Shown: in pieces, positions 4,667 through 31,262 of the stretch | How positions within the stretch are numbered: the first letter of the stretch is position 1 | Layout: each line of letters opens with the position of its first letter | Source: a virus | DNA: 64,000 bases | Virus record (IMG/VR): IMGVR_UViG_3300042691_044733 | Span: 1 to 64,000 of that record | Direction: 5' to 3' (one strand) | Notes under the pieces: generated by a model | Told to the model about the DNA's origin: nothing | Databases searched by the model: none | The model's input: the letters and a program-made list of their open reading frames with translations, nothing else | Position numbers and translations under genes: made by a program

Positions 4667-5206
4667 ATGGATGAAGAATGGAAAGATATTACTGGATATG
4701 AAGGTTTATATCAAATAAGTAATAGAGGTAAAGTTAAAAGTTTTCATAGAAGTGTAAACGGCAGCATAATAAAAAATCATGTTGATTCTGGTGGTTATTT
4801 GTTTATTCAGTTAAAATGTAAAAATAAACTCACTAAACACTTTAGTATTCATAGATTAGTAGCTCTACATTTTATTGAAAACTTAAATAATAAACCTCAA
4901 GTTAATCACAAGGATGGTAATAAAACTAATAATCATGTTGATAATTTGGAATGGGTTACATCAAAAGAAAATATACAACATTCAATACAAACAGGTTTAA
5001 CTGATATATCAAGAAAATCAGTTAAAGAAACATGTTCTAAACCTATTTTACAATATTCAAAAGATAATATTTTTATTAAAGAATATGTTTCTATTATAGA
5101 GGCTGCTACAGAAAACAATTTAAGTATTGCAAACATTAGTAGATGTTGTAATAATAAATATGGTTATAAAACTTGTGGTGGATTTATTTGGAAATTTAAG
5201 ATATAA
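4667..5206 (+). CDS. NUMOD4-HNH-NUMOD1 homing endonuclease
   Basis: EEWKDITGYEGLYQISNRG; HRLVA..VNHKDGNKTNN; C-terminal ISRCC...GGFIW. Confidence 0.9.
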   Translation: MDEEWKDITGYEGLYQISNRGKVKSFHRSVNGSIIKNHVDSGGYLFIQLKCKNKLTKHFSIHRLVALHFIENLNNKPQVNHKDGNKTNNHVDNLEWVTSKENIQHSIQTGLTDISRKSVKETCSKPILQYSKDNIFIKEYVSIIEAATENNLSIANISRCCNNKYGYKTCGGFIWKFKI

Positions 5207-5607
5207 GTTTTTGATATTTTACCTTTGTGAATTAAAAGTTAAAAGTGAAAGAAATCTATTTTAGTACAATTAAGTACGAACTTCTTTTGAAGCCTAATTC
5301 ATATAAAAAGTTGTAGTAAGAACCCCAAGAAAGTCAGCCAGCAATGGTTACTGTAGATGGTTAAAGATTCTATTAAAGTAGGATGTACTGAACTATCTTT
5401 TGAAAAGGTTGAACAGATTTACAATTACATGAAAGAACTTCAAAAAAAACAAGTAATTTAAAATATTAATTGTTGTAATGTCTCCCGAAGTTGTCAAACG
5501 GGGATTGAAGCAGAAATAGTATTTAAATACATGAGTGTACAAACGACAAATTAGTACATAGAAATATTATTTAGATTTACAACAATTTTTTTAATTTATT
5601 AATTATT

Positions 5608-6150
5608 ATGGAATATTTACTGTTAAAAGTAGAATTTGTTATCTTACCCTCAAAAGAACCAAGTGATTTTGAAGTTTTTACTTATATAGGTGAAAATGGA
5701 AAAGACTTTACAAGAGTTCATAAACGAGTTAGTAAAAAGTTAACTCCTAAAAGTTGTAATTTTTATTTTCTTGTAGAAGATCCTATAAAACCTGGAAATT
5801 ATATTGTATTTAACAATGAACCAGTTTTGATAAAAAGTGAGGAGCATTTATCTACTTTTGTAAATCCAAAAAAAATACTTGCAAGTACAGATGCAAAATT
5901 GATTAATTTTTGTTCTGAAGTAGATCCAGATCTTAAAATTTATGGAATTCACCCTAATTTCACAAATTTATTGCAAAAATTTGAAGAAATATTATCTGTA
6001 GAGGTTTATTATGAAGATATTTTAGTATTTGGTTGTGATCCTCAAACTGGAGAATGGAAAGATTTACCTGTAAGAAATTATCTTTTAAATAGTTATTATG
6101 GATTTACAAAAGGAAGAATAACAAAAAACAAGAAAATAATCAAAACATGA
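5608..6150 (+). CDS. Hypothetical phage protein (KIIAST/D-type family)
   Basis: KKILASTD motif resembles 16134..16676 and 18517..19098. Confidence 0.65.
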   Translation: MEYLLLKVEFVILPSKEPSDFEVFTYIGENGKDFTRVHKRVSKKLTPKSCNFYFLVEDPIKPGNYIVFNNEPVLIKSEEHLSTFVNPKKILASTDAKLINFCSEVDPDLKIYGIHPNFTNLLQKFEEILSVEVYYEDILVFGCDPQTGEWKDLPVRNYLLNSYYGFTKGRITKNKKIIKT

Positions 6151-21584: not shown

Positions 21585-21700
21585 AAATATACTCATAGCT
21601 TCAGTTTTACAGTTACATAACTAGGGTGTTAGATTTACATTTTTAGTGTTGTGAGTAAAGTATAAGTTTGAGTATTATAACCGAAAGTCATGTTATAGCA

Positions 21701-21790
21701 CTCTTTAGCGGGGGTTCGAATCCCCTCTCCCCATCTATTTTATTTTTTATATTGGGGAGTGGACAAGGGGTTAAGTCAAAGAGATTCAGT
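21701..21790 (+). tRNA. Circularly permuted tRNA-like gene (3' half 21701-21734 precedes 5' half 21753-~21790); possible anticodon TCA
   Basis: 3' half: CTCTT-TAGC-GGGGG TTCGAAT CCCCT-CTCCCCA-T. 5' half: TGGGGAG-TG-GAC AAGGGGTTAA GTC-A-AAGAG. Acceptor and anticodon stems pair across the two halves. Confidence 0.75.
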
Positions 21791-21864
21791 TATAAAATAA
21801 TATGAATACGAGTAGGTATGAATAAATTGAGAGTACGGGATATTGTACTCTCAATTTACTTTAC

Positions 21865-25157: not shown

Positions 25158-26246
25158 AATAGCTAATATTTTTTTTTGTTTTAGCTTTCATGTTTCGTAT
25201 ATTTATATATGAGACAAACAACTATAGAAAAATTTGAAAAATTTGATGTAATCAATTTATATGAAAAACAAAATATTTCATTAAATAAACTATCTGATTT
25301 AGTGAAGACTAAACCAGAAACAATATCTAAATATTTAAAATTTAAAGGAATAAAAATCCTTAATAGAGGAAGTTTAGGTATGAATAAATCAGGTAAAAAA
25401 TTTAATGAGTTTGTTTTTGATAAAATCGATTCTGAAGAAAAAGCTTATTGGTTAGGTTTTATTTTTGCAGACGGATATATTTCTTTAAAACATAATGTTT
25501 TTGAAATTTCGTTATCTGCAAAAGATAAAGAACACCTTGAAAAATTTAATTCTTTTATGAACTACAAAGGAAATAATCTAAAATTTAGATTATGCAAAAA
25601 ATTATTTCCAGTGTATAGATGGAATATTAGAAATTTACATTTAGTAAAAACATTAAATTCTTTAGGGTGTAAACCAAATAAAAGTTTAATTTTAGAGTTT
25701 CCTAAAAAATCATTTATTAAAAAATCTTTAATAAGACATTTTATAAGAGGTTATTTTGATGGAGATGGCTGTATTTCAACAACTTTTAGATCTATTAATT
25801 TATTAGGAACTGAAAATATGTTAGAAAACATTAAAAATTATTCTAAAATAAAAACTAAATCTAAACTTTATTGCAAAAATAATAGTAAAATTACTAAAAT
25901 TTTTCAATTAAATAGTTTAAAAGCTTTAGAATTTTTAAATTTTATTTATAAAGATAGTTGTATTTATTTAGAAAGAAAATACAATAAATATTTAGAATTT
26001 TGCCGTTTATATAAGTAATTATATAAATCATTATTGGGGAAAATCGAAGAACTCTGCGATGAGAACATCGAGATTGCTAATAACAGTTAGTGATTGTAAC
26101 GCATAGAGATTGAGCATTATTGTAAGCAAAAATATCTCCAAGAGTCTCCGACACCCTTATGTCTTAGGGTGAAAATATATGCTGAACTTACAAGAATAAG
26201 AATTGTAAGAACTATAGGATAAAAAGCTTGTAGGATAACATAATTG
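25158..26246 (+). mobile_element. Group I intron with LAGLIDADG ORF
   Basis: 5' site GGT|AATAGCT (U-G in P1), terminal G at 26246, P7 GCATA (GTAACGCATAGA) / TATGC (AATATATGCTGAAC). Splicing joins GGGNGG to ESY in frame. Confidence 0.85.
25209..26018 (+). CDS. Intron-encoded LAGLIDADG homing endonuclease
   Basis: AYWLGFIFADGYI and HFIRGYFDGDGCI motifs. Confidence 0.9.
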   Translation: MRQTTIEKFEKFDVINLYEKQNISLNKLSDLVKTKPETISKYLKFKGIKILNRGSLGMNKSGKKFNEFVFDKIDSEEKAYWLGFIFADGYISLKHNVFEISLSAKDKEHLEKFNSFMNYKGNNLKFRLCKKLFPVYRWNIRNLHLVKTLNSLGCKPNKSLILEFPKKSFIKKSLIRHFIRGYFDGDGCISTTFRSINLLGTENMLENIKNYSKIKTKSKLYCKNNSKITKIFQLNSLKALEFLNFIYKDSCIYLERKYNKYLEFCRLYK

Positions 26247-26699
26247 GAAAGTTACTTCTTACCTTGGTTTTTTGGAAGTGAAATGACTAAGACAGATCAT
26301 TGGGAGAAAAGAAAGCAAAAAGGAATTTTGATTACTATTGGTGATGAACACTGTCACAAGAACATTACACCAAAAGATCTTATTAATATTTTTACTAGTT
26401 CTGAATCAGAACTTTTAAAATCAGAAGCCAGATCAATAAATGTAAGTGAAATCTACGAAAAGTGCTCTAAGAAATATGAAATTTTTCATTTAAATCTTTC
26501 CAGAGATAAAGATATTCGCGATTCTTGGAATAAACTGATTGGAGAAAGATCTCTTCTGATTGAAGAAAGTGAGATAACAGATAAAATTATTCAGGTGATT
26601 AAATCTGTTGTAAATCTTCCTACTTCTGATGTAAAAGATACTCCTTCTGTAGAGAAAAAAAACAATGATTCATTACCCGAAATTAAAATAACTTTATGA
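26247..26699 (+). CDS. vWA-domain protein, exon 2 (spliced product 293 aa)
   Basis: ESY...GILITIGDE completes the vWA/MIDAS domain. Confidence 0.85.
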   Translation, partial: ESYFLPWFFGSEMTKTDHWEKRKQKGILITIGDEHCHKNITPKDLINIFTSSESELLKSEARSINVSEIYEKCSKKYEIFHLNLSRDKDIRDSWNKLIGERSLLIEESEITDKIIQVIKSVVNLPTSDVKDTPSVEKKNNDSLPEIKITL

Positions 26700-27784
26700 G
26701 AAAATTTGTAATTGATCTTGGATTTGGAGATTCTGGAAAAGGTATCACAACAGCAAGACTTGTTAAAGAGTTAAATGCTGATAATAAAACTTGGGTTGTT
26801 AAATTTAACGGAGGTGCCCAAGCAGGACATACTGTTATGATTAAAAAACCTGACGGTACTGAAATATCACATGTTTTTTCACAAGTTGGTAGTGGGACCT
26901 TTTTTGGTGCTAAAACTCTTGTAACTAGTGACTGTGCTATTTACATACCTTCTTTAGTTCGTGAATTTAAAATTCTCAAAGAGTTAGGTTATGTTCCTGA
27001 ATATGCAACAGAAAACAGAGTAATGCTTACTACTCCATTTGACATTGATTTTAACAGAAAAAATGCTAAAATGATTCAAAATGGTTCAGTAGGTATGGGC
27101 TTTGGTGCTACAGTACAGAGAACTCTTGATCATTATGGTATTTACATGACAGATCTCAATTGTCTTGAAGGACTTGATTATAAATTACGTAATATTGCAA
27201 AATATTACGGATTTACTGATGAAAAGTACATTGAGAAACAAATTGCTTATTTTATGGATTCTATAGATGAATTTGGTGAACTTGGAAATGTATCTTTAGA
27301 GTCTTTAGATCTGTTGATGGAAGATAAAGATTTAAATTTTGTATTTGAATCTTCTCAAGGAACAATGTTAGATCAACATTTTGGATTTTTTCCAAATGTA
27401 ACTCGTAGTAATACTACTTTACAAAATGTTGTAAAGTACATTAATGTAGATTCAGAAATTCATTTTGTTTCTAGAACATACACTACAAGACATGGAAATG
27501 GACCGTTGTTTGGAGAACATGAAGTTCCTATATTAAATCCATATGAAACAAATAAATCACATGATTTTCAGGGAGAGTTTAGAACTGCCCCACTAAAAGT
27601 GGATCAATTTACTTATGCTCTTGCTGTTAATTTGAGTTTCTTAAAATTTAAAATGGGAACAAATTTAAATCTTCATTTTACTTGTAGTGATATTGTTCCT
27701 AAATCAAAAATAAATCCTGTTCTATTAAATTTTATAGAAAGTGCTGGTGTGAACTGTAAATTTTACGATACACCATTTGTTTAA
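26696..27784 (+). CDS. Adenylosuccinate synthetase-like protein (divergent PurA family)
   Basis: DLGFGDSGKG, NGGAQAGHTV, GSVGMGFG, FESSQG.MLD, PNVTRS and RTYTTRHGNGP motifs. Confidence 0.85.
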   Translation: MRKFVIDLGFGDSGKGITTARLVKELNADNKTWVVKFNGGAQAGHTVMIKKPDGTEISHVFSQVGSGTFFGAKTLVTSDCAIYIPSLVREFKILKELGYVPEYATENRVMLTTPFDIDFNRKNAKMIQNGSVGMGFGATVQRTLDHYGIYMTDLNCLEGLDYKLRNIAKYYGFTDEKYIEKQIAYFMDSIDEFGELGNVSLESLDLLMEDKDLNFVFESSQGTMLDQHFGFFPNVTRSNTTLQNVVKYINVDSEIHFVSRTYTTRHGNGPLFGEHEVPILNPYETNKSHDFQGEFRTAPLKVDQFTYALAVNLSFLKFKMGTNLNLHFTCSDIVPKSKINPVLLNFIESAGVNCKFYDTPFV

Positions 27785-27966: not shown

Positions 27967-30030
27967 ATGACTAAAAATGAAATTTTGTTAAGAAAAAGGT
28001 TAGTCAATTTTGACAATGCTTGGCAAAACAATTTAGCTGAAACAATGTCTTTGCAAAGAGAGCTTATGACATATGGTTATATGTTATCTCAAGAAGCATT
28101 TGACATGATAAAACATGCTGACATTGCTGATATTATATCTTTTCATAAAGATGTAGTAAAATTACTTAAAGAGTTTAATGGTGGAAAATACAAATCTCTT
28201 TATGGTGATTTTCCAAATGATGTGATGAACATGAGTGATTGTGAATATTATTACAATCAAATAATGCATTACTGGGGTAAGAAAACTTTTAATATTCCAA
28301 AAACAAACAGAGAAAAATCAGATCCTTGTTTTAATAAAGAATCTTATCATGAAATTAAACCTTGCACAAAAGATGAATTTCTTAATATCTTTACAGAACT
28401 TGTAAGTGTTAATAATTCTCTTACTCCTGCTGATCAAGAAATCATTAAATTCTTTGTTAAAAACAAATATGAATTACGTTTTCCGTCTACTATTCCTTTT
28501 AAGGAGAATCTTGCTGTACTTGTTTCACTTTGTCCAACTTTTACCGTAAAAACAGTAACTGATGTACTTAGAGTAGCATGTGTGTTTTCTGGTATTACTG
28601 GTGGTGCAGAATTACATCCTGTTCCAAAAGTAGAAAGATATAGAAATTTAGGGCAGTATAAGTTTAAACTCACAACTGCACAAAAAGAAAGAATTCTTGA
28701 ATTACTTGAAAATTCAAATCTTGATGTAAGAGAAATGAAACAAGGTTCAAAGTATCAAAGATGGATAAGATTATTTGAAGTTCTTCATATCGAATATTAC
28801 AAAAAAGAATATCCAAAATCTTTTGATGCTTCTGATAGATTGAGAAATCAGAAAAGAAAAGGAAAACCAGACGGTAAACCTCTAATAAGAACTTGGTATT
28901 CAGATGTTGAAAGATTGTTTAAGACTGATTTCAATTCAGGACTTGTCAAGTTATCAGAACGACCTGGAGAATTTGTAAGAAGAATTGATTATTTAGTGAG
29001 AACTCATCCAAAGAATATAAATGACATTTTCAATGCTTTAGCATCTAAAGGAGAATTGGTATCAACCAAGGTACTTTTTGAGGTTCTTACTCATTTTACA
29101 AAAAGAAATCAGGATGTTCCTAGATCAGTATTTGTAAAGAATTCAAGAAAGAAATTTGAACTTCCTACATTGAAAGCTTTAAAAACTGATACTATCAATA
29201 CTGTAAAGGAAACTATTTATTCTCTTTTAGAAACTAAATTTTCTAAGTTGGATCCAATAGGTCCTTGTTATGTTGATGAAGAGCTTAAGAAGATTCCACT
29301 TCCTGAGAACATGAGAACCATGTCTGATTCTTTGATTCCTATTATCAGAGGTCAGAAAACAAAACTTAATATTGACAAATCAACATTAAGAGCATTTGTT
29401 CACTGGAATGATTTAAACGGAAATGAAGATATTGATTTACATGGTTATGCGTTAGGAACTTCTGGTGTTTCACATTGTGGTTTTAATGGAGTAAGACTTA
29501 CTAAAGTATTTACTTATTCTGGTGATGTAAGATTCAGAAGAGGTCGTTGTGCAGAGTATATTGATATAAACATTGAAGAAGCTTTAAAAGCAGGTGTTGA
29601 AAAAGTACTGTTAATTACTCATAATTTTACAAGAAGACCTTTTTCAACTCTTAAAGACTGTAAAACTGGTTATATTGATTTGGATAAACGAAAAAAATCT
29701 TCAACTTGGTTACCAGATTCTGTAAGACAATCTGTGAAATTGTCTGGAGCAGCTTCTTATTGTTTAATTGGTGTTTATGATTTGAAAAACATGGAATATG
29801 TCCATTGTGATTTAGATCTTGATTCTAACGATCTTATGAAAATAAGTGCTGGAAATATCAATTTCATAAAAACTATGATTGGAGATCCTCCAATTTCGGT
29901 TTATGATCTTGTCCGACTTCACGTTATAGCTAGAGGAACTCTTGTTTCTAAAGATGTAGCTGAAAATTACTTCACTTATGATGACTTTAGTAAATCTTAT
30001 GAAAAAGTTTTATTACTTTTGAAAGATTAA
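27967..30030 (+). CDS. Large helical protein with C-terminal TerD-like domain
   Basis: LYGDFPNDVM..YYNQIMHYW, PFKENL, TDVLR, RPGEFVRRID; C-terminal FVHW..EDIDLH..YSGDV..AEYIDI TerD-like pattern. Confidence 0.7.
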   Translation: MTKNEILLRKRLVNFDNAWQNNLAETMSLQRELMTYGYMLSQEAFDMIKHADIADIISFHKDVVKLLKEFNGGKYKSLYGDFPNDVMNMSDCEYYYNQIMHYWGKKTFNIPKTNREKSDPCFNKESYHEIKPCTKDEFLNIFTELVSVNNSLTPADQEIIKFFVKNKYELRFPSTIPFKENLAVLVSLCPTFTVKTVTDVLRVACVFSGITGGAELHPVPKVERYRNLGQYKFKLTTAQKERILELLENSNLDVREMKQGSKYQRWIRLFEVLHIEYYKKEYPKSFDASDRLRNQKRKGKPDGKPLIRTWYSDVERLFKTDFNSGLVKLSERPGEFVRRIDYLVRTHPKNINDIFNALASKGELVSTKVLFEVLTHFTKRNQDVPRSVFVKNSRKKFELPTLKALKTDTINTVKETIYSLLETKFSKLDPIGPCYVDEELKKIPLPENMRTMSDSLIPIIRGQKTKLNIDKSTLRAFVHWNDLNGNEDIDLHGYALGTSGVSHCGFNGVRLTKVFTYSGDVRFRRGRCAEYIDINIEEALKAGVEKVLLITHNFTRRPFSTLKDCKTGYIDLDKRKKSSTWLPDSVRQSVKLSGAASYCLIGVYDLKNMEYVHCDLDLDSNDLMKISAGNINFIKTMIGDPPISVYDLVRLHVIARGTLVSKDVAENYFTYDDFSKSYEKVLLLLKD

Positions 30031-30037
30031 ACGTTTT

Positions 30038-30613
30038 TATGTGCAACTTACTTCTACTTGAATTTTTAACTCAAACCTAGTTGCACAATTTATTTATAAT
30101 AACAGTACTATGTTAGACTTACTTCTACAATTCTTGAAAAATTCCGTATTAGTTTAACAATTATCTGTTATTTATTGGGGGATGGTGTAGTGGCAGCACG
30201 CATTATTCATTTACAATTATTTATTATGTTTTTGATACTTCTATGCCTCATTAGCATGAAGCTCAGGTTCGATTCCTGGTCCCCCAACTTTTATGGTTAA
30301 GTTACTTCTATGAAATTTGTAAATTCTATACTTAACCAATTTTTTTATTTATGTGCATCTTACTTCTAAAATTTATGGTAATTATTAGATGCACAATTTA
30401 CTTTTTTATGACTGTCTTACTTCTAATATTCTGCAAAAATAAATTAGTCAGTCAATTACAATTATACTATGATAGCAACAGAAACACACTGGTTGTCATA
30501 GGTTTAAAGATGAAGGAAAGTGTTTGATACCTTCATACCAGAGGAAGTAGCTCAGTTGGTAGAGCAATAATCTAATAATTTTATAATTATTTTTTATATA
30601 GAATTTACTTCTA
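30038..30613 (+). repeat. Array of 7 structured elements: left arm TATR-N6-WTACTTCTA, right arm TW-N6'-YAATT, with anticodon stem-loop or tRNA cargo
   Basis: Left arms at 30038, 30109, 30225, 30292, 30350, 30407 and 30595. Right arms at 30078, 30150, 30206, 30329, 30386, 30445 and 30576. N6 and N6' covary. Confidence 0.9.
30176..30287 (+). tRNA. tRNA-Met(CAT)-like gene with ~41-nt insert in the anticodon stem
   Basis: TGGGGGA/TCCCCCA acceptor, GTGT/GCAC D stem, TCAGG-TTCGATT-CCTGG T arm. Removing 30204-30244 gives CATGC-CTCATTA-GCATG. Confidence 0.8.
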
Positions 30614-30651
30614 AAAATTATATGTCGGGGGTTCGAGTCCCTCCTTCCTCT
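30541..30651 (+). tRNA. tRNA gene (Phe-like body; anticodon AAA or TAA) with ~38-nt insert in the anticodon loop
   Basis: GAGGAAG/CTTCCTC acceptor, TAGCTCAGTTGGTAGAGC, ATAAT/ATTAT anticodon stem, ATGTC variable loop, GGGGG-TTCGAGT-CCCTC T arm. Confidence 0.8.
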
Positions 30652-30657
30652 CTATTT

Positions 30658-30732
30658 AATTCTGTAGTTCAATGGATAGAATAAGGGTTTTCTAAACCTT
30701 TGATCCAAGTTCGACTCTTGGCAGAATTACCA
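30658..30732 (+). tRNA. tRNA-Arg(TCT)
   Basis: AATTCTG/CAGAATT acceptor; AGGGT-TTTCTAA-ACCTT anticodon arm; encoded CCA. Confidence 0.9.
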
Positions 30733-30787
30733 TACAATAACTTCTCTATTGTATTAACAAACAAATAACTTAAAAAAAAATAACATT

Positions 30788-31222
30788 ATGGCAATAGCAT
30801 TAGAAAAAGCAAAAGAATTGTACGATAAAGTACAAGCAAAAAAATCTGCTATAGAGAAAGCAGAAAAGGGTAAATTTGAAACTGATGGTATGTTTAGATA
30901 CAGTCACTCAGGTGCAGTAATGGACATTAAAACAGAAAAATCAAAGACCAAATTAGTTGAAGTGTATGCTTTTCTCCTTGAAAGAGAAGAAAAGTTAACT
31001 ACTGCTGCAAAAGAATTAGGTGTAGAAACAGAAAAAACATGGCTTGGTGCACCTATCAGTTCTTGGAAAGAAGATCTGAAAATTGCAGCAAACAGATTGA
31101 GTATTGCGAAACAAAAAGCAGAATTGAATAAAATGGAAGAAACTCTTAAAATGGTTTCTCCTGATTTACTTTCTACTTTGGAAATCGAAAACATTGAAAA
31201 AGCTCTTTCTGAGTCTAAATAA
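30788..31222 (+). CDS. Helical hypothetical protein, candidate partner of 27967..30030
   Basis: ORF track; lies directly after the array and before a terminator. Confidence 0.75.
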   Translation: MAIALEKAKELYDKVQAKKSAIEKAEKGKFETDGMFRYSHSGAVMDIKTEKSKTKLVEVYAFLLEREEKLTTAAKELGVETEKTWLGAPISSWKEDLKIAANRLSIAKQKAELNKMEETLKMVSPDLLSTLEIENIEKALSESK

Positions 31223-31226
31223 TATT

Positions 31227-31262
31227 AAAAGGTCTAGAGAGAAGCTAGACCTTTTATTTTTT
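31227..31262 (+). terminator. Rho-independent terminator
   Basis: AAAAGGTCTAG-N7-CTAGACCTTTT followed by Ts. Confidence 0.7.

What the first reader, a model, noticed from the sequence alone, without database searches (positions are those of the whole stretch)
30038..30457. Array of anticodon stem-loop mimics, each held by a conserved covarying stem with a TTACTTCTA bulge
Seen: five units TATG-N6-TTACTTCTA-[17-22 nt cargo]-TA-N6'-CAATT at 30038-30090, 30109-30162, 30292-30341, 30350-30398 and 30407-30457. N6 differs between units but pairs with its own N6' (TGCAAC/GTTGCA, TTAGAC/GTTTAA, GTTAAG/CTTAAC, TGCATC/GATGCA, ACTGTC/GTCAGT), so structure rather than sequence is conserved. Each cargo is a short hairpin with a YT-NNN-RN 7-nt loop typical of anticodon loops: TT-TTT-AA (Lys), CT-TGA-AA (Ser), TT-TGT-AA (Thr), TT-ATG-GT (His-like, weak stem) and CT-GCA-AA (Cys). 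Inference: a protein-bound RNA handle presenting a panel of anticodon loops. These could be decoys or sensors for host anticodon nucleases (PrrC, RloC, VapC or PARIS-type defence), donors for tRNA repair, or small circles made by back-splicing. I know of no described family for this.
Basis: partly seen in the sequence, partly recalled or inferred. Interest (0 to 1): 0.95.

Follow-up and report, generated by a model that had tools for sequence, protein, structure and literature searches.

The report
Handle RNAs beside a Ro60-like protein
Five small folded RNA genes in a large phage share one conserved handle and belong to an apparently undescribed RNA family that always sits beside one uncharacterised protein gene, much as Y RNAs sit beside Ro60; here several carry tRNA anticodon-arm look-alikes.

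Summary
The five units are real. Each has a 9-bp stem (9, 9, 9, 9 and 8 of 9 pairs) and an unpaired UACUUCUA. The cargo (17-23 nt) is a strict anticodon-like hairpin in 2 of 5 units, or 3 of 5 with one mismatch allowed. Two flanking tRNA genes carry the same handle in permuted order.

The units are not specific to this phage. The motif recurs beside homologs of the adjacent 687-aa protein in distant phages and bacteria. A covariance model gave 128 hits, all on the gene's strand, in 45 of 71 homolog loci and 0 of 3 control loci. In three bacterial genomes it hit only at that locus. The stem covaries strongly (92.9% paired against 57.9% shuffled). Rfam holds no such family.

The protein has a TerD C-terminal domain and a weak, full-length fold resemblance to Ro60.

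My best reading is an undescribed Ro60/Y-RNA-like particle whose RNAs display tRNA-derived modules. The main rival is a protein-dependent processing or intron signal.

Across the family, anticodon-like cargo is a minority trait (4 of 45). I obtained no expression data for the array. I found no paper describing the system. Earlier notes of this scan report the same family on at least seven other genomes.

The parts
27967..30030 (+). Gene for the 687-aa partner protein: helical N-terminal part plus TerD-fold C-terminal domain (residues about 468-635)
   Evidence: ORF. PHROG phrog_33734, E 4.9e-35. No Pfam family. NCBIfam NF041916 at E 9.7e-50, below its cut-off. AlphaFold2 model with pLDDT 81. 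TerD fold at Z 13-14; Ro60 chains aligned over 288-330 residues at Z 5.4-6.8.
30038..30091 (+). Unit 1. Stem 30040-30048 with 30079-30087; motif 30048-30056; cargo 30057-30078 (loop TTTTTAA with a mismatched closing pair)
   Evidence: model R1 48.5 bits
30109..30163 (+). Unit 2. Stem 30111-30119 with 30151-30159; motif 30119-30127; cargo 30128-30150 (strict anticodon-like hairpin, loop CTTGAAA). By eye, the only unit here with a CTA box and a possible outer stem.
   Evidence: R1 48.0 bits
30176..30287 (+). tRNA(-like) gene with anticodon CAT, interrupted in the anticodon stem by an insert of about 41 nt (about 30203-30243) carrying the handle in permuted order. Motif ATACTTCTA at 30235-30243. 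Position 37 of the loop is U.
   Evidence: Rfam tRNA 40.4 bits with a 52-nt gap. The insert's stem pairs only 6 of 9, which is not above chance. ARAGORN's own call for this gene differs.
30292..30342 (+). Unit 4. Stem 30294-30302 with 30330-30338; motif 30302-30310; cargo 30311-30329 (weak hairpin that fails both anticodon-like tests)
   Evidence: seed row of alignment A4
30350..30399 (+). Unit 5. Stem 30352-30360 with 30387-30395; motif 30360-30368; cargo 30369-30386 (not anticodon-like)
   Evidence: R1 46.7 bits
30407..30458 (+). Unit 6. Stem 30409-30417 with 30446-30454 (8 of 9 pairs); motif 30417-30425; cargo 30426-30445 (strict anticodon-like hairpin, loop CTGCAAA)
   Evidence: R1 37.9 bits
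30541..30651 (+). tRNA(-like) gene with a Phe-like body, interrupted in the anticodon loop by an insert of about 38 nt. Handle stem 30577-30585 with 30597-30605 (9 of 9 pairs); motif 30605-30613. The mature anticodon is ambiguous (TAA, AAA or AAT).
   Evidence: Rfam tRNA 56.8 bits with a 41-nt gap. Stem 9 of 9, reached by 85 of 2000 shuffles. Junction options.
30658..30732 (+). Ordinary tRNA-Arg (TCT) closing the RNA cluster
30788..31222 (+). Gene for a 144-aa helical protein that follows the array in relatives as well
   Evidence: ORF. tblastn hits in 29 of the 84 loci then held, all of them array-bearing. Alignment A3. Model pLDDT 82. No informative fold match.
31226..31256 (+). Terminator-like hairpin after the 144-aa gene

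Best explanation
The five units are genes for small structured RNAs of an apparently undescribed family, which I call 'handle RNAs'. They are the cognate partners of the adjacent 687-aa protein.

Common anatomy:
- an optional outer stem (GG paired with CC), lost in 4 of the 5 units here;
- a small internal loop (CUA opposite AUUU);
- a covarying stem of about 9 bp;
- an invariant single-stranded UACUUCU(A) where the 5' strand leaves that stem;
- a variable module (the 'cargo').

Inferred mechanism. The protein has a helical N-terminal part, a TerD domain and a Ro60-like overall shape. It binds the constant handle, and the variable module is displayed or tethered, as Y RNAs work with Ro60. The variable modules are often tRNA-derived. 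In this phage they are anticodon-arm look-alikes. In two genes, a whole tRNA body is joined to the handle through its anticodon arm.

The most likely role is in tRNA-centred conflict or quality control: presenting tRNA parts to, or tethering, enzymes that cut, repair or process tRNA.

Shown: the RNA structure, its conservation and its linkage to the gene. Inferred: binding, display and the biological role.
For: Structure.
- Covariation of the stem: 92.9% paired against 57.9% shuffled, and 9 of 9 pairs have double changes.
- Independent minimum-free-energy folds of units from many loci give the same architecture.

Linkage to the protein gene.
- 28 of 49 tabulated homolog loci have at least 3 motif sites within 1.6 kb downstream of the gene. 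Most others have 1-2 next to it.
- Model R1 gave 128 hits, all on the gene's strand, in 45 of 71 homolog sources and 0 of 3 control loci. In the 64-kb window it hit only the array.
- In three bacterial genomes of 5.9-7.2 Mb the only hits (1, 4 and 2) lie at the protein locus.
- The pair persists from 24% to 69% GC. By eye it is present in the cultured phages RcXuper, Weasels2 and XacN1.

Protein.
- TerD fold at Z 13-14.
- Ro60 chains are the only matches that align across nearly the whole length (9l5y_B Z 6.8 over 288 residues; 2i91_A Z 6.4 over 321).
- A crAss-phage TROVE protein in BFVD matches at E 9e-4.
- Many invariant Arg and Lys residues lie in residues 330-400.

Precedent. Thermus phage phiLo Ro60 has two Y-RNA-like genes just upstream (PMC12135203, passages read). 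Bacterial Y RNAs lie next to rsr and mimic tRNA (PMC4201824, passages read).

tRNA-related cargo in relatives. T-arm plus closed acceptor stems occur in about 11 of 137 unique units by a crude regex count. A complete tRNA-Met is the cargo in L087.

The interrupted tRNAs are redundant for decoding. Relatives with an interrupted Asn tRNA also carry an intact tRNA-Asn (GTT). This window has two intact tRNA-Met genes.
Against: - No sequence-level membership in TROVE. Pfam gave nothing for any of the 35 family members at E up to 10 or for the whole phage genome. A PDB profile search was empty.
- The Ro60 fold matches have Z values in the range that the tool itself calls common for helical repeats.
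- Neither binding nor expression of the RNAs was shown. RNA-library contigs covered only the downstream gene.
- Three interrupted tRNA types (Arg, Asn, Met) regain a perfect 5-bp anticodon stem only if the insert is removed (and my reading). That points to processing rather than mere tethering.
- In 26 of 71 homolog sources the model found no unit. These are mostly the most distant homologs. One of them, RcXuper, has units by eye.
Confidence: 0.55

Rival explanations
1. The handle is a recognition signal for RNA processing, in effect a protein-dependent intron or excision module. An endonuclease cuts at the two strands where the stem meets the cargo, and a ligase joins the ends. In the interrupted tRNAs this removes the insert and yields a working tRNA. 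In stand-alone units it releases the cargo, perhaps as a circle. The 687-aa protein would mark or catalyse the reaction. This rival is compatible with a stable protein-RNA complex.
For: - The insert in tRNAs is the same handle in circularly permuted order: right arm, loop, left arm, motif.
- Under a strict test (5 perfect pairs, 7-nt loop with U33 and R37) exactly one junction works for L005 Arg-TCT, L014 Asn-GTT and L020 Asn-GTT. In each it lies after tRNA position 28, with the 3' cut 0-2 nt after the motif.
- The window's first tRNA regains five Watson-Crick pairs in the same way (my reading).
- A complete tRNA-Met with an encoded CCA end sits as cargo in L087, with the handle as paired leader and trailer.
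Against: - No nuclease or ligase domain was detected in the protein.
- The distance from the motif to the 3' junction varies (0 to +2). In the Phe-like class many junctions are equally possible and the implied anticodon differs between phages.
- Bacterial loci have one or two units with a short unstructured loop and nothing to excise.
- Intact copies of the same tRNA species coexist.
- No bulge-helix-bulge geometry is present (my reading).
- The first tRNA's loop has U at position 37, and its insert stem pairs only 6 of 9.
Confidence: 0.22
2. The units are DNA-level repeats, such as a small mobile element, recombination sites, or promoter/terminator cassettes. On this view they are not functional RNAs.
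For: - They are short, clustered direct repeats in an intergenic stretch.
- Part of an array in L005 is tandemly duplicated.
- An AT-rich box precedes some units in relatives (by eye).
Against: - Compensatory changes keep a stem whose sequence differs in every copy.
- All 128 model hits are on the strand of the protein gene.
- There is a single locus per genome.
- The elements are conserved across hosts from 24% to 69% GC.
- No transposase or integrase is linked to them.
Confidence: 0.04
3. The units are minimal 'armless' tRNAs that decode codons. The 9-bp stem would serve as acceptor stem and the cargo as anticodon arm.
For: - Overall size is about 47-50 nt.
- There are anticodon-like loops in 2-3 of the 5 units.
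Against: - Neither Rfam tRNA nor ARAGORN calls any of the five units.
- A D-arm replacement that is invariant in sequence across phyla is not expected.
- Most family members have cargo that is not anticodon-like.
- The linkage to one protein gene would be left unexplained.
Confidence: 0.02

Closest known systems
Ro60 (Rsr, TROVE + vWA) with Y RNAs, especially bacterial and phage YrlA/YrlB (Rfam RF02553; PMC4201824; Thermus phage phiLo Ro60 with Yrl1/Yrl2, PMC12135203)
   Same: - One to several small RNA genes lie directly beside the protein gene.
- The RNA ends pair in a stem that carries a constant element, and a variable module follows.
- The variable modules often imitate tRNA.
- The protein is a large helical-repeat protein with a cation-binding-type beta domain at the C-terminus. 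Full-length fold alignments to Ro60 chains give Z 5.4-6.8.
   Different: - The TROVE profile does not match.
- The C-terminal domain is TerD, not vWA.
- The RNA does not match the YrlA model (23 bits against a gathering score of 69, and that match spans two tRNA genes at 30598-30712).
- The constant element is different: CUA/AUUU loop, 9-bp stem and UACUUCU.
- Arrays reach 7 units.
- The handle also occurs inside tRNA genes in permuted order.
Archaeal bulge-helix-bulge elements: tRNA introns at non-canonical positions, permuted and split tRNAs, processing stems (review PMC4090602, search listing and abstract only)
   Same: One structural module appears both inside tRNAs as an insert and, in permuted topology, around other RNAs. 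The inserts lie in the anticodon stem or loop.
   Different: - There is no 3-4-3 bulge-helix-bulge.
- The junction is asymmetric, with 8 nt conserved on one strand and 0-5 nt on the other.
- The hosts are bacteria and phages, where no splicing endonuclease is known.
- Splicing is not shown here.
Bacterial and phage group I introns in tRNA anticodon loops (PMC3984707, search listing and abstract only)
   Same: They interrupt tRNA genes of bacteria and phages at the anticodon arm.
   Different: The inserts here are 38-41 nt, far below ribozyme size. No group I intron match appears in Rfam.

Membership tests
Ro60 / TROVE proteins | TROVE domain detectable by sequence (Pfam PF05731) | tested here: not met
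   No hit for the protein, for any of 35 aligned family members at E up to 10, or anywhere in the phage genome at E up to 10. A PDB profile search was empty at E up to 1.
Ro60 / TROVE proteins | Ring of HEAT-like repeats (overall Ro60 fold) | tested here: inconclusive
   Ro60 chains align over 288-330 residues across nearly the whole model at Z 5.4-6.8 and rmsd 5-6 A. Foldseek gives 2nvo a probability of 0.51. A BFVD TROVE protein matches at E 9e-4. These Z values lie in the range the tool calls common for helical repeats.
Ro60 / TROVE proteins | C-terminal vWA domain with MIDAS site | tested here: not met
   The C-terminal domain (residues about 468-635) matches TerD structures at Z 12-14.
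Ro60 / TROVE proteins | Partner small-RNA genes adjacent to the protein gene | tested here: met
Y RNA / YrlA (Rfam RF02553) | Match to the family covariance model | tested here: not met
   The best match is 23 bits against a gathering score of 69. It spans 30598-30712, that is, two tRNA genes. Nothing was found on the arrays of L014 or L034.
Y RNA / YrlA (Rfam RF02553) | Stem formed by the RNA's two ends, carrying a conserved element, plus a variable and often tRNA-like module | tested here: met
   Stem and covariation. tRNA-like modules in relatives. In this window the modules are anticodon-like hairpins.
Y RNA / YrlA (Rfam RF02553) | Bound by the Ro60 protein in vivo | not testable with these tools
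   Needs pull-down or CLIP.
tRNA (Rfam RF00005) | Cloverleaf recognised by the tRNA model | tested here: not met
   None of the five units is called by Rfam or ARAGORN. The two interrupted genes are called (40.4 and 56.8 bits).
Archaeal-type tRNA intron | Bulge-helix-bulge at the splice sites | tested here: not met
   By reading the sequences: one junction strand is the 8-nt UACUUCUA and the other is 0-5 nt. There are no paired 3-nt bulges around a 4-bp helix.
Archaeal-type tRNA intron | Splicing endonuclease and ligase genes present | not tested
   I did not search the phage genome for EndA or RtcB. No RtcB was seen within 3 kb in the 4 bacterial loci examined.
Group I intron | Ribozyme core of about 200 nt or more | tested here: not met
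   The inserts are 38-41 nt. No Rfam match.

The most novel reading that the evidence does not exclude
The handle is a permutable, protein-recognised RNA processing module in bacteria and their phages. tRNAs carrying it are spliced after position 28 or in the anticodon loop by a protein-dependent pathway not known in bacteria. The stand-alone units release anticodon-arm cassettes, possibly as circles. These would act as decoys or baits for host anticodon nucleases, all organised on a Ro60-like particle.
Probability: 0.15. Interest if true: 0.95.

Novelty: new variant of a known kind. Interest (0 to 1): 0.8.

Why it matters
If the reading holds, many tRNA-rich phages and a range of bacteria encode a second, unrecognised branch of Ro60/Y-RNA-type particles. 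Its protein escapes the TROVE profile and its RNAs are absent from Rfam.

The RNAs are modular. A constant docking handle carries interchangeable tRNA pieces: anticodon arms, T-arm with acceptor stem, or whole tRNAs. That links the system directly to the contest between phages and hosts over tRNA cleavage and repair.

The handle inside tRNA genes raises a testable question: do bacteria or phages have a protein-dependent way of removing small tRNA inserts?

By eye, three cultured phages carry the pair: Rhodobacter phage RcXuper, Rhodococcus phage Weasels2 and Xanthomonas phage XacN1. Ordinary experiments can therefore settle binding, RNA ends and function.

Tried and rejected
- Exact-pattern scan. 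A scan of IMG/VR for a whole unit gave 3 loci, all single chance matches without arrays.
- Single-protein locus searches for the 687-aa and 144-aa proteins found no relatives. The alignment-based search then worked.
- DNA similarity to GenBank phages found only the tRNA-Arg.
- Closest relatives not examined. All comparators are therefore at 45% protein identity or less.
- Rfam gave nothing but tRNA.
- Splice-junction enumeration with ARAGORN accepted hundreds of junctions and did not discriminate. I replaced it with a strict rule. That rule found no T arm in 5 of 13 sites and no solution for the window's first tRNA, because its position 37 is U.
- RNA-library contigs. In three runs they cover 30744-31218, the 144-aa gene. 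Over the second tRNA they match only conserved tRNA parts, with other letters between, so they come from other organisms. No contig of these libraries lay on the array. Contigs cannot show small RNAs, so this says nothing about expression.
- Complex prediction of the 687-aa and 144-aa proteins gave no verdict (score 0.00).
- The fold search for the 144-aa protein returned only generic helical matches.
- RtcB next to bacterial homologs, a lead from earlier scan notes, was not seen in the 10 flanking ORFs from 4 bacterial loci that I scanned. One locus has RNase R upstream.
- Homologs at about 27% identity in jumbo phages (L054-L084) show no arrays within the flanks held.
- The complement of the motif is not enriched in the window (both strands), so I found no phage-encoded pairing target.
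- Readings considered and dropped: armless tRNAs, attC-like sites, C/D-box or kink-turn RNAs (no GA pairs), and small ribozymes (no known core).
- Supplements of PMC4201824 (lists of phage YrlA) and PMC7824862 (which jumbo phages carry a 'ROT/TROVE' protein) were not seen. They may show whether this protein family was already counted as TROVE.
Full report
**What is in the window.** The window is the first 64 kb of a single 126,979-bp phage contig with about 28% GC. Between the stop codon of a 687-aa gene (27967-30030) and a 144-aa gene (30788-31222) lie five repeated units, two interrupted tRNA genes and one ordinary tRNA-Arg.

Exact TTACTTCTA occurs 9 times in the window. Six copies, plus one copy with one mismatch, lie in 30048-30613. 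Genome-wide, 7 of 15 [A/T]TACTTCTA sites lie in these 566 nt. The other copies lie in long open reading frames and look like chance.

**The units.** Each unit is a 9-bp stem (UG-N6-U with A-N6'-CA) that pairs 9, 9, 9, 9 and 8 of 9. Next come an unpaired UACUUCUA, a 17-23-nt cargo, and AUU(U/A) after the stem. Minimum-free-energy folds recover the stem in all five, with z-scores of -4.25, -1.52, -2.37, -3.95 and -2.53.

The cargo is a strict anticodon-like hairpin (at least 4 contiguous pairs around a YU-NNN-R-N loop) in units 2 and 6 only. That is 2 of 5, with P about 0.004 against shuffled cargo. Unit 1 passes if its closing pair may mismatch, giving 3 of 5 with P about 0.0002. Units 4 and 5 fail both tests.

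**The interrupted tRNAs.** Rfam's tRNA model matches 30176-30287 (40.4 bits) and 30541-30651 (56.8 bits), each with a large gap in the anticodon arm. Each insert reads: right arm of a unit, short spacer, left arm, then the motif. This is the handle in circularly permuted order.

- In the second gene the handle stem pairs 9 of 9, including a UG/CA to UA/UA double change (85 of 2000 shuffles reach this).
- In the first gene it pairs only 6 of 9, which is no better than chance. Here, however, a complete anticodon hairpin (loop CTCATTA) follows the motif just where the cargo sits in a free unit. Removing about 41 nt after position 28 would restore five Watson-Crick pairs (my reading). That loop has U at position 37, which is unusual for a working tRNA.

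**The family.** Nothing in Rfam 15 matches except tRNA. The 687-aa protein has hundreds of relatives (400 at E up to 1e-10 among the candidates scored).

An alignment of 35 of them retrieved 80 IMG/VR loci and 18 loci in bacterial genome contigs. A blind search for clustered 8-mers in the IMG/VR loci turned up the same word, TTACTTCT, next to the gene. Of 49 tabulated loci, 28 have 3-7 motif sites within 1.6 kb downstream. Most of the rest have 1-2 beside the gene.

In relatives the unit is fuller:
- an outer stem ending in GG paired with CC;
- an internal loop, CUA opposite AUUU;
- the stem of about 9 bp;
- UACUUCU(A);
- the cargo.

The window's units lack the outer stem in 4 of 5 cases (by eye).

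On an alignment of 30 units (25 from 17 loci, 5 from the window) the stem is 92.9% paired against 57.9% in shuffles (0 of 500). Slid registers give 28-48%, and all 9 pairs have changes on both sides.

A covariance model built on this alignment gave 128 hits at E up to 0.1 over 74 sources (795 kb, both strands). All are on the strand of the protein gene. They fall in 45 of 71 sources holding a homolog and 0 of 3 control loci. In the window only the array is hit.

In three bacterial genomes of 5.9-7.2 Mb the only hits (1, 4 and 2) are at the protein locus. A fourth genome and phage XacN1 gave none at E up to 0.01.

By eye, cultured phages carry the pair: RcXuper has three units upstream of RCXUPER_7, Weasels2 has three downstream of gp266, and XacN1 has three with the variant TTCCTTCTA upstream of ORF396. 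All of these lie in stretches with no annotated feature.

**Cargo across the family.** Cargos fall into recurring types that are conserved between phages:
- short hairpins;
- a T-arm plus an acceptor-like stem closed by a loop;
- unstructured A-rich loops;
- a roughly 130-nt domain inserted in the 5' strand of the stem;
- in L087, a whole tRNA-Met with an encoded CCA end.

A crude count over 137 unique units gave 9 interrupted tRNAs and 12 units with a T-loop motif in the cargo, one of which is a false call. Strict anticodon-like hairpins occur in 4 of 45 short cargos, against 0.56 expected (4 of 1000 shuffles). They are enriched but remain a minority.

**Interrupted tRNAs in relatives.** Arrays commonly end with an interrupted tRNA.
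- One class (Arg-TCT in L005; Asn-GTT in L014 and L020, and by eye in L011, L021 and L033) has a single junction that restores a perfect arm. It lies after position 28, 0-2 nt past the motif.
- A second class, on a Phe-like body, is interrupted in the loop. Here the junction is ambiguous and the implied anticodon differs between phages.

Phages with the interrupted Asn gene also carry an intact tRNA-Asn.

**The proteins.** The 687-aa protein matches no Pfam family. It matches PHROG 33734 (function unknown) and, below the cut-off, NCBIfam NF041916. The ESM Atlas places it with 'TerD family' and MXAN_6230/SCO0854 clusters of phages and bacteria.

The AlphaFold2 model (pLDDT 81) has a TerD-fold domain at about residues 468-635 (Z 12-14). 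Ro60 structures align across almost the whole length (Z 5.4-6.8, 288-330 residues). These are the only long alignments among many short HEAT-repeat hits. A TROVE protein of a crAss phage is also a BFVD hit. The TROVE profile finds nothing in the phage genome.

The 144-aa protein follows the array in 29 of the 84 loci then held. It is helical with no informative fold match.

**Interpretation.** The structure, its covariation and its exclusive linkage to one protein family across phyla show a cognate RNA-protein pair. The nearest known analogue is Ro60 with Y RNAs, whose genes also sit side by side, come in small sets and mimic tRNA (PMC4201824 and PMC12135203, passages read).

I therefore read the five units as Y-RNA-like handle RNAs whose variable modules, in this phage, are mostly anticodon-arm look-alikes. 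I read the two interrupted genes as tRNA bodies joined to the same handle. Binding, expression and function are all inferred.

The main rival, which is not exclusive, is that the handle marks sites of excision and ligation. The clean restoration of anticodon stems in three tRNA types argues for this. Arguing against it are the missing catalytic domain, the variable junctions, the redundancy with intact tRNAs and the simple bacterial loci.

**Prior knowledge.** I found no description in eight full-text searches. A jumbo-phage survey mentions ROT/TROVE proteins in a few phages (PMC7824862, passages read). Its supplements, which I could not see, may list this family.

Earlier AI notes of this scan report the same RNA-protein pair on at least seven other genomes, with the same reading. 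I reached mine before reading them, and they are not independent evidence.

Noticed in passing
window 21686-21807: A circularly permuted tRNA-like gene. The T arm and 3' acceptor strand come first, then a 19-nt linker, then the 5' acceptor strand, the D arm and the 5' strand of the anticodon stem. The acceptor end is therefore closed and the anticodon end open, which is the YrlA-type topology. It has no UACUUCU motif, and Rfam gives no significant match.
   Followed up: partly
window 26696-27784: An adenylosuccinate-synthetase-like gene. It matches the PHROG annotated as the PurZ-type enzyme (E 5e-44) and Pfam Adenylsucc_synt. This suggests a 2-aminoadenine (Z) genome in this phage.
   Followed up: no
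window 25209-26018: A LAGLIDADG homing-endonuclease gene lies upstream of the tRNA/RNA island.
   Followed up: no
window 30744-31218: Contigs of three RNA libraries match the 144-aa gene at 100% identity and begin at 30744-30764. One carries sequencing-adapter letters directly before 30754. This hints at an RNA end shortly after the tRNA-Arg.
   Followed up: no
window 30466-30540: By eye, the 75-nt spacer between unit 6 and the second interrupted tRNA holds two further hairpins without the motif. They are unexplained.
   Followed up: no
L008 7130-7250, L014 7160-7278 and the like in L011, L012, L020, L021, L028, L029: One unit type carries a conserved structured domain of about 100-130 nt inserted in the 5' strand of the handle stem. 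It has no Rfam match in L014.
   Followed up: partly
L087 6549-6677: A complete tRNA-Met (CAT) with an encoded CCA end sits as the cargo of a handle. The handle arms form its paired leader and trailer.
   Followed up: partly
L096 174-2774: In a complete planctomycete chromosome (Anatilimnocola), an RNase R gene lies directly upstream of the handle RNA and the protein gene.
   Followed up: no
L007, L008, L014, L022, L028, L034 (spacers between units): By eye, a conserved AT-rich box (TTAGTTCTTT...AAAATAT) precedes several units about 10-15 nt before the GGCTAT box. It may be a promoter for individual units.
   Followed up: no
L103 (RcXuper) 5051-6040; L104 (XacN1) 98-961: Genes annotated as nucleotidyltransferase, together with tRNA genes, lie near the protein gene in two cultured phages.
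   Followed up: no
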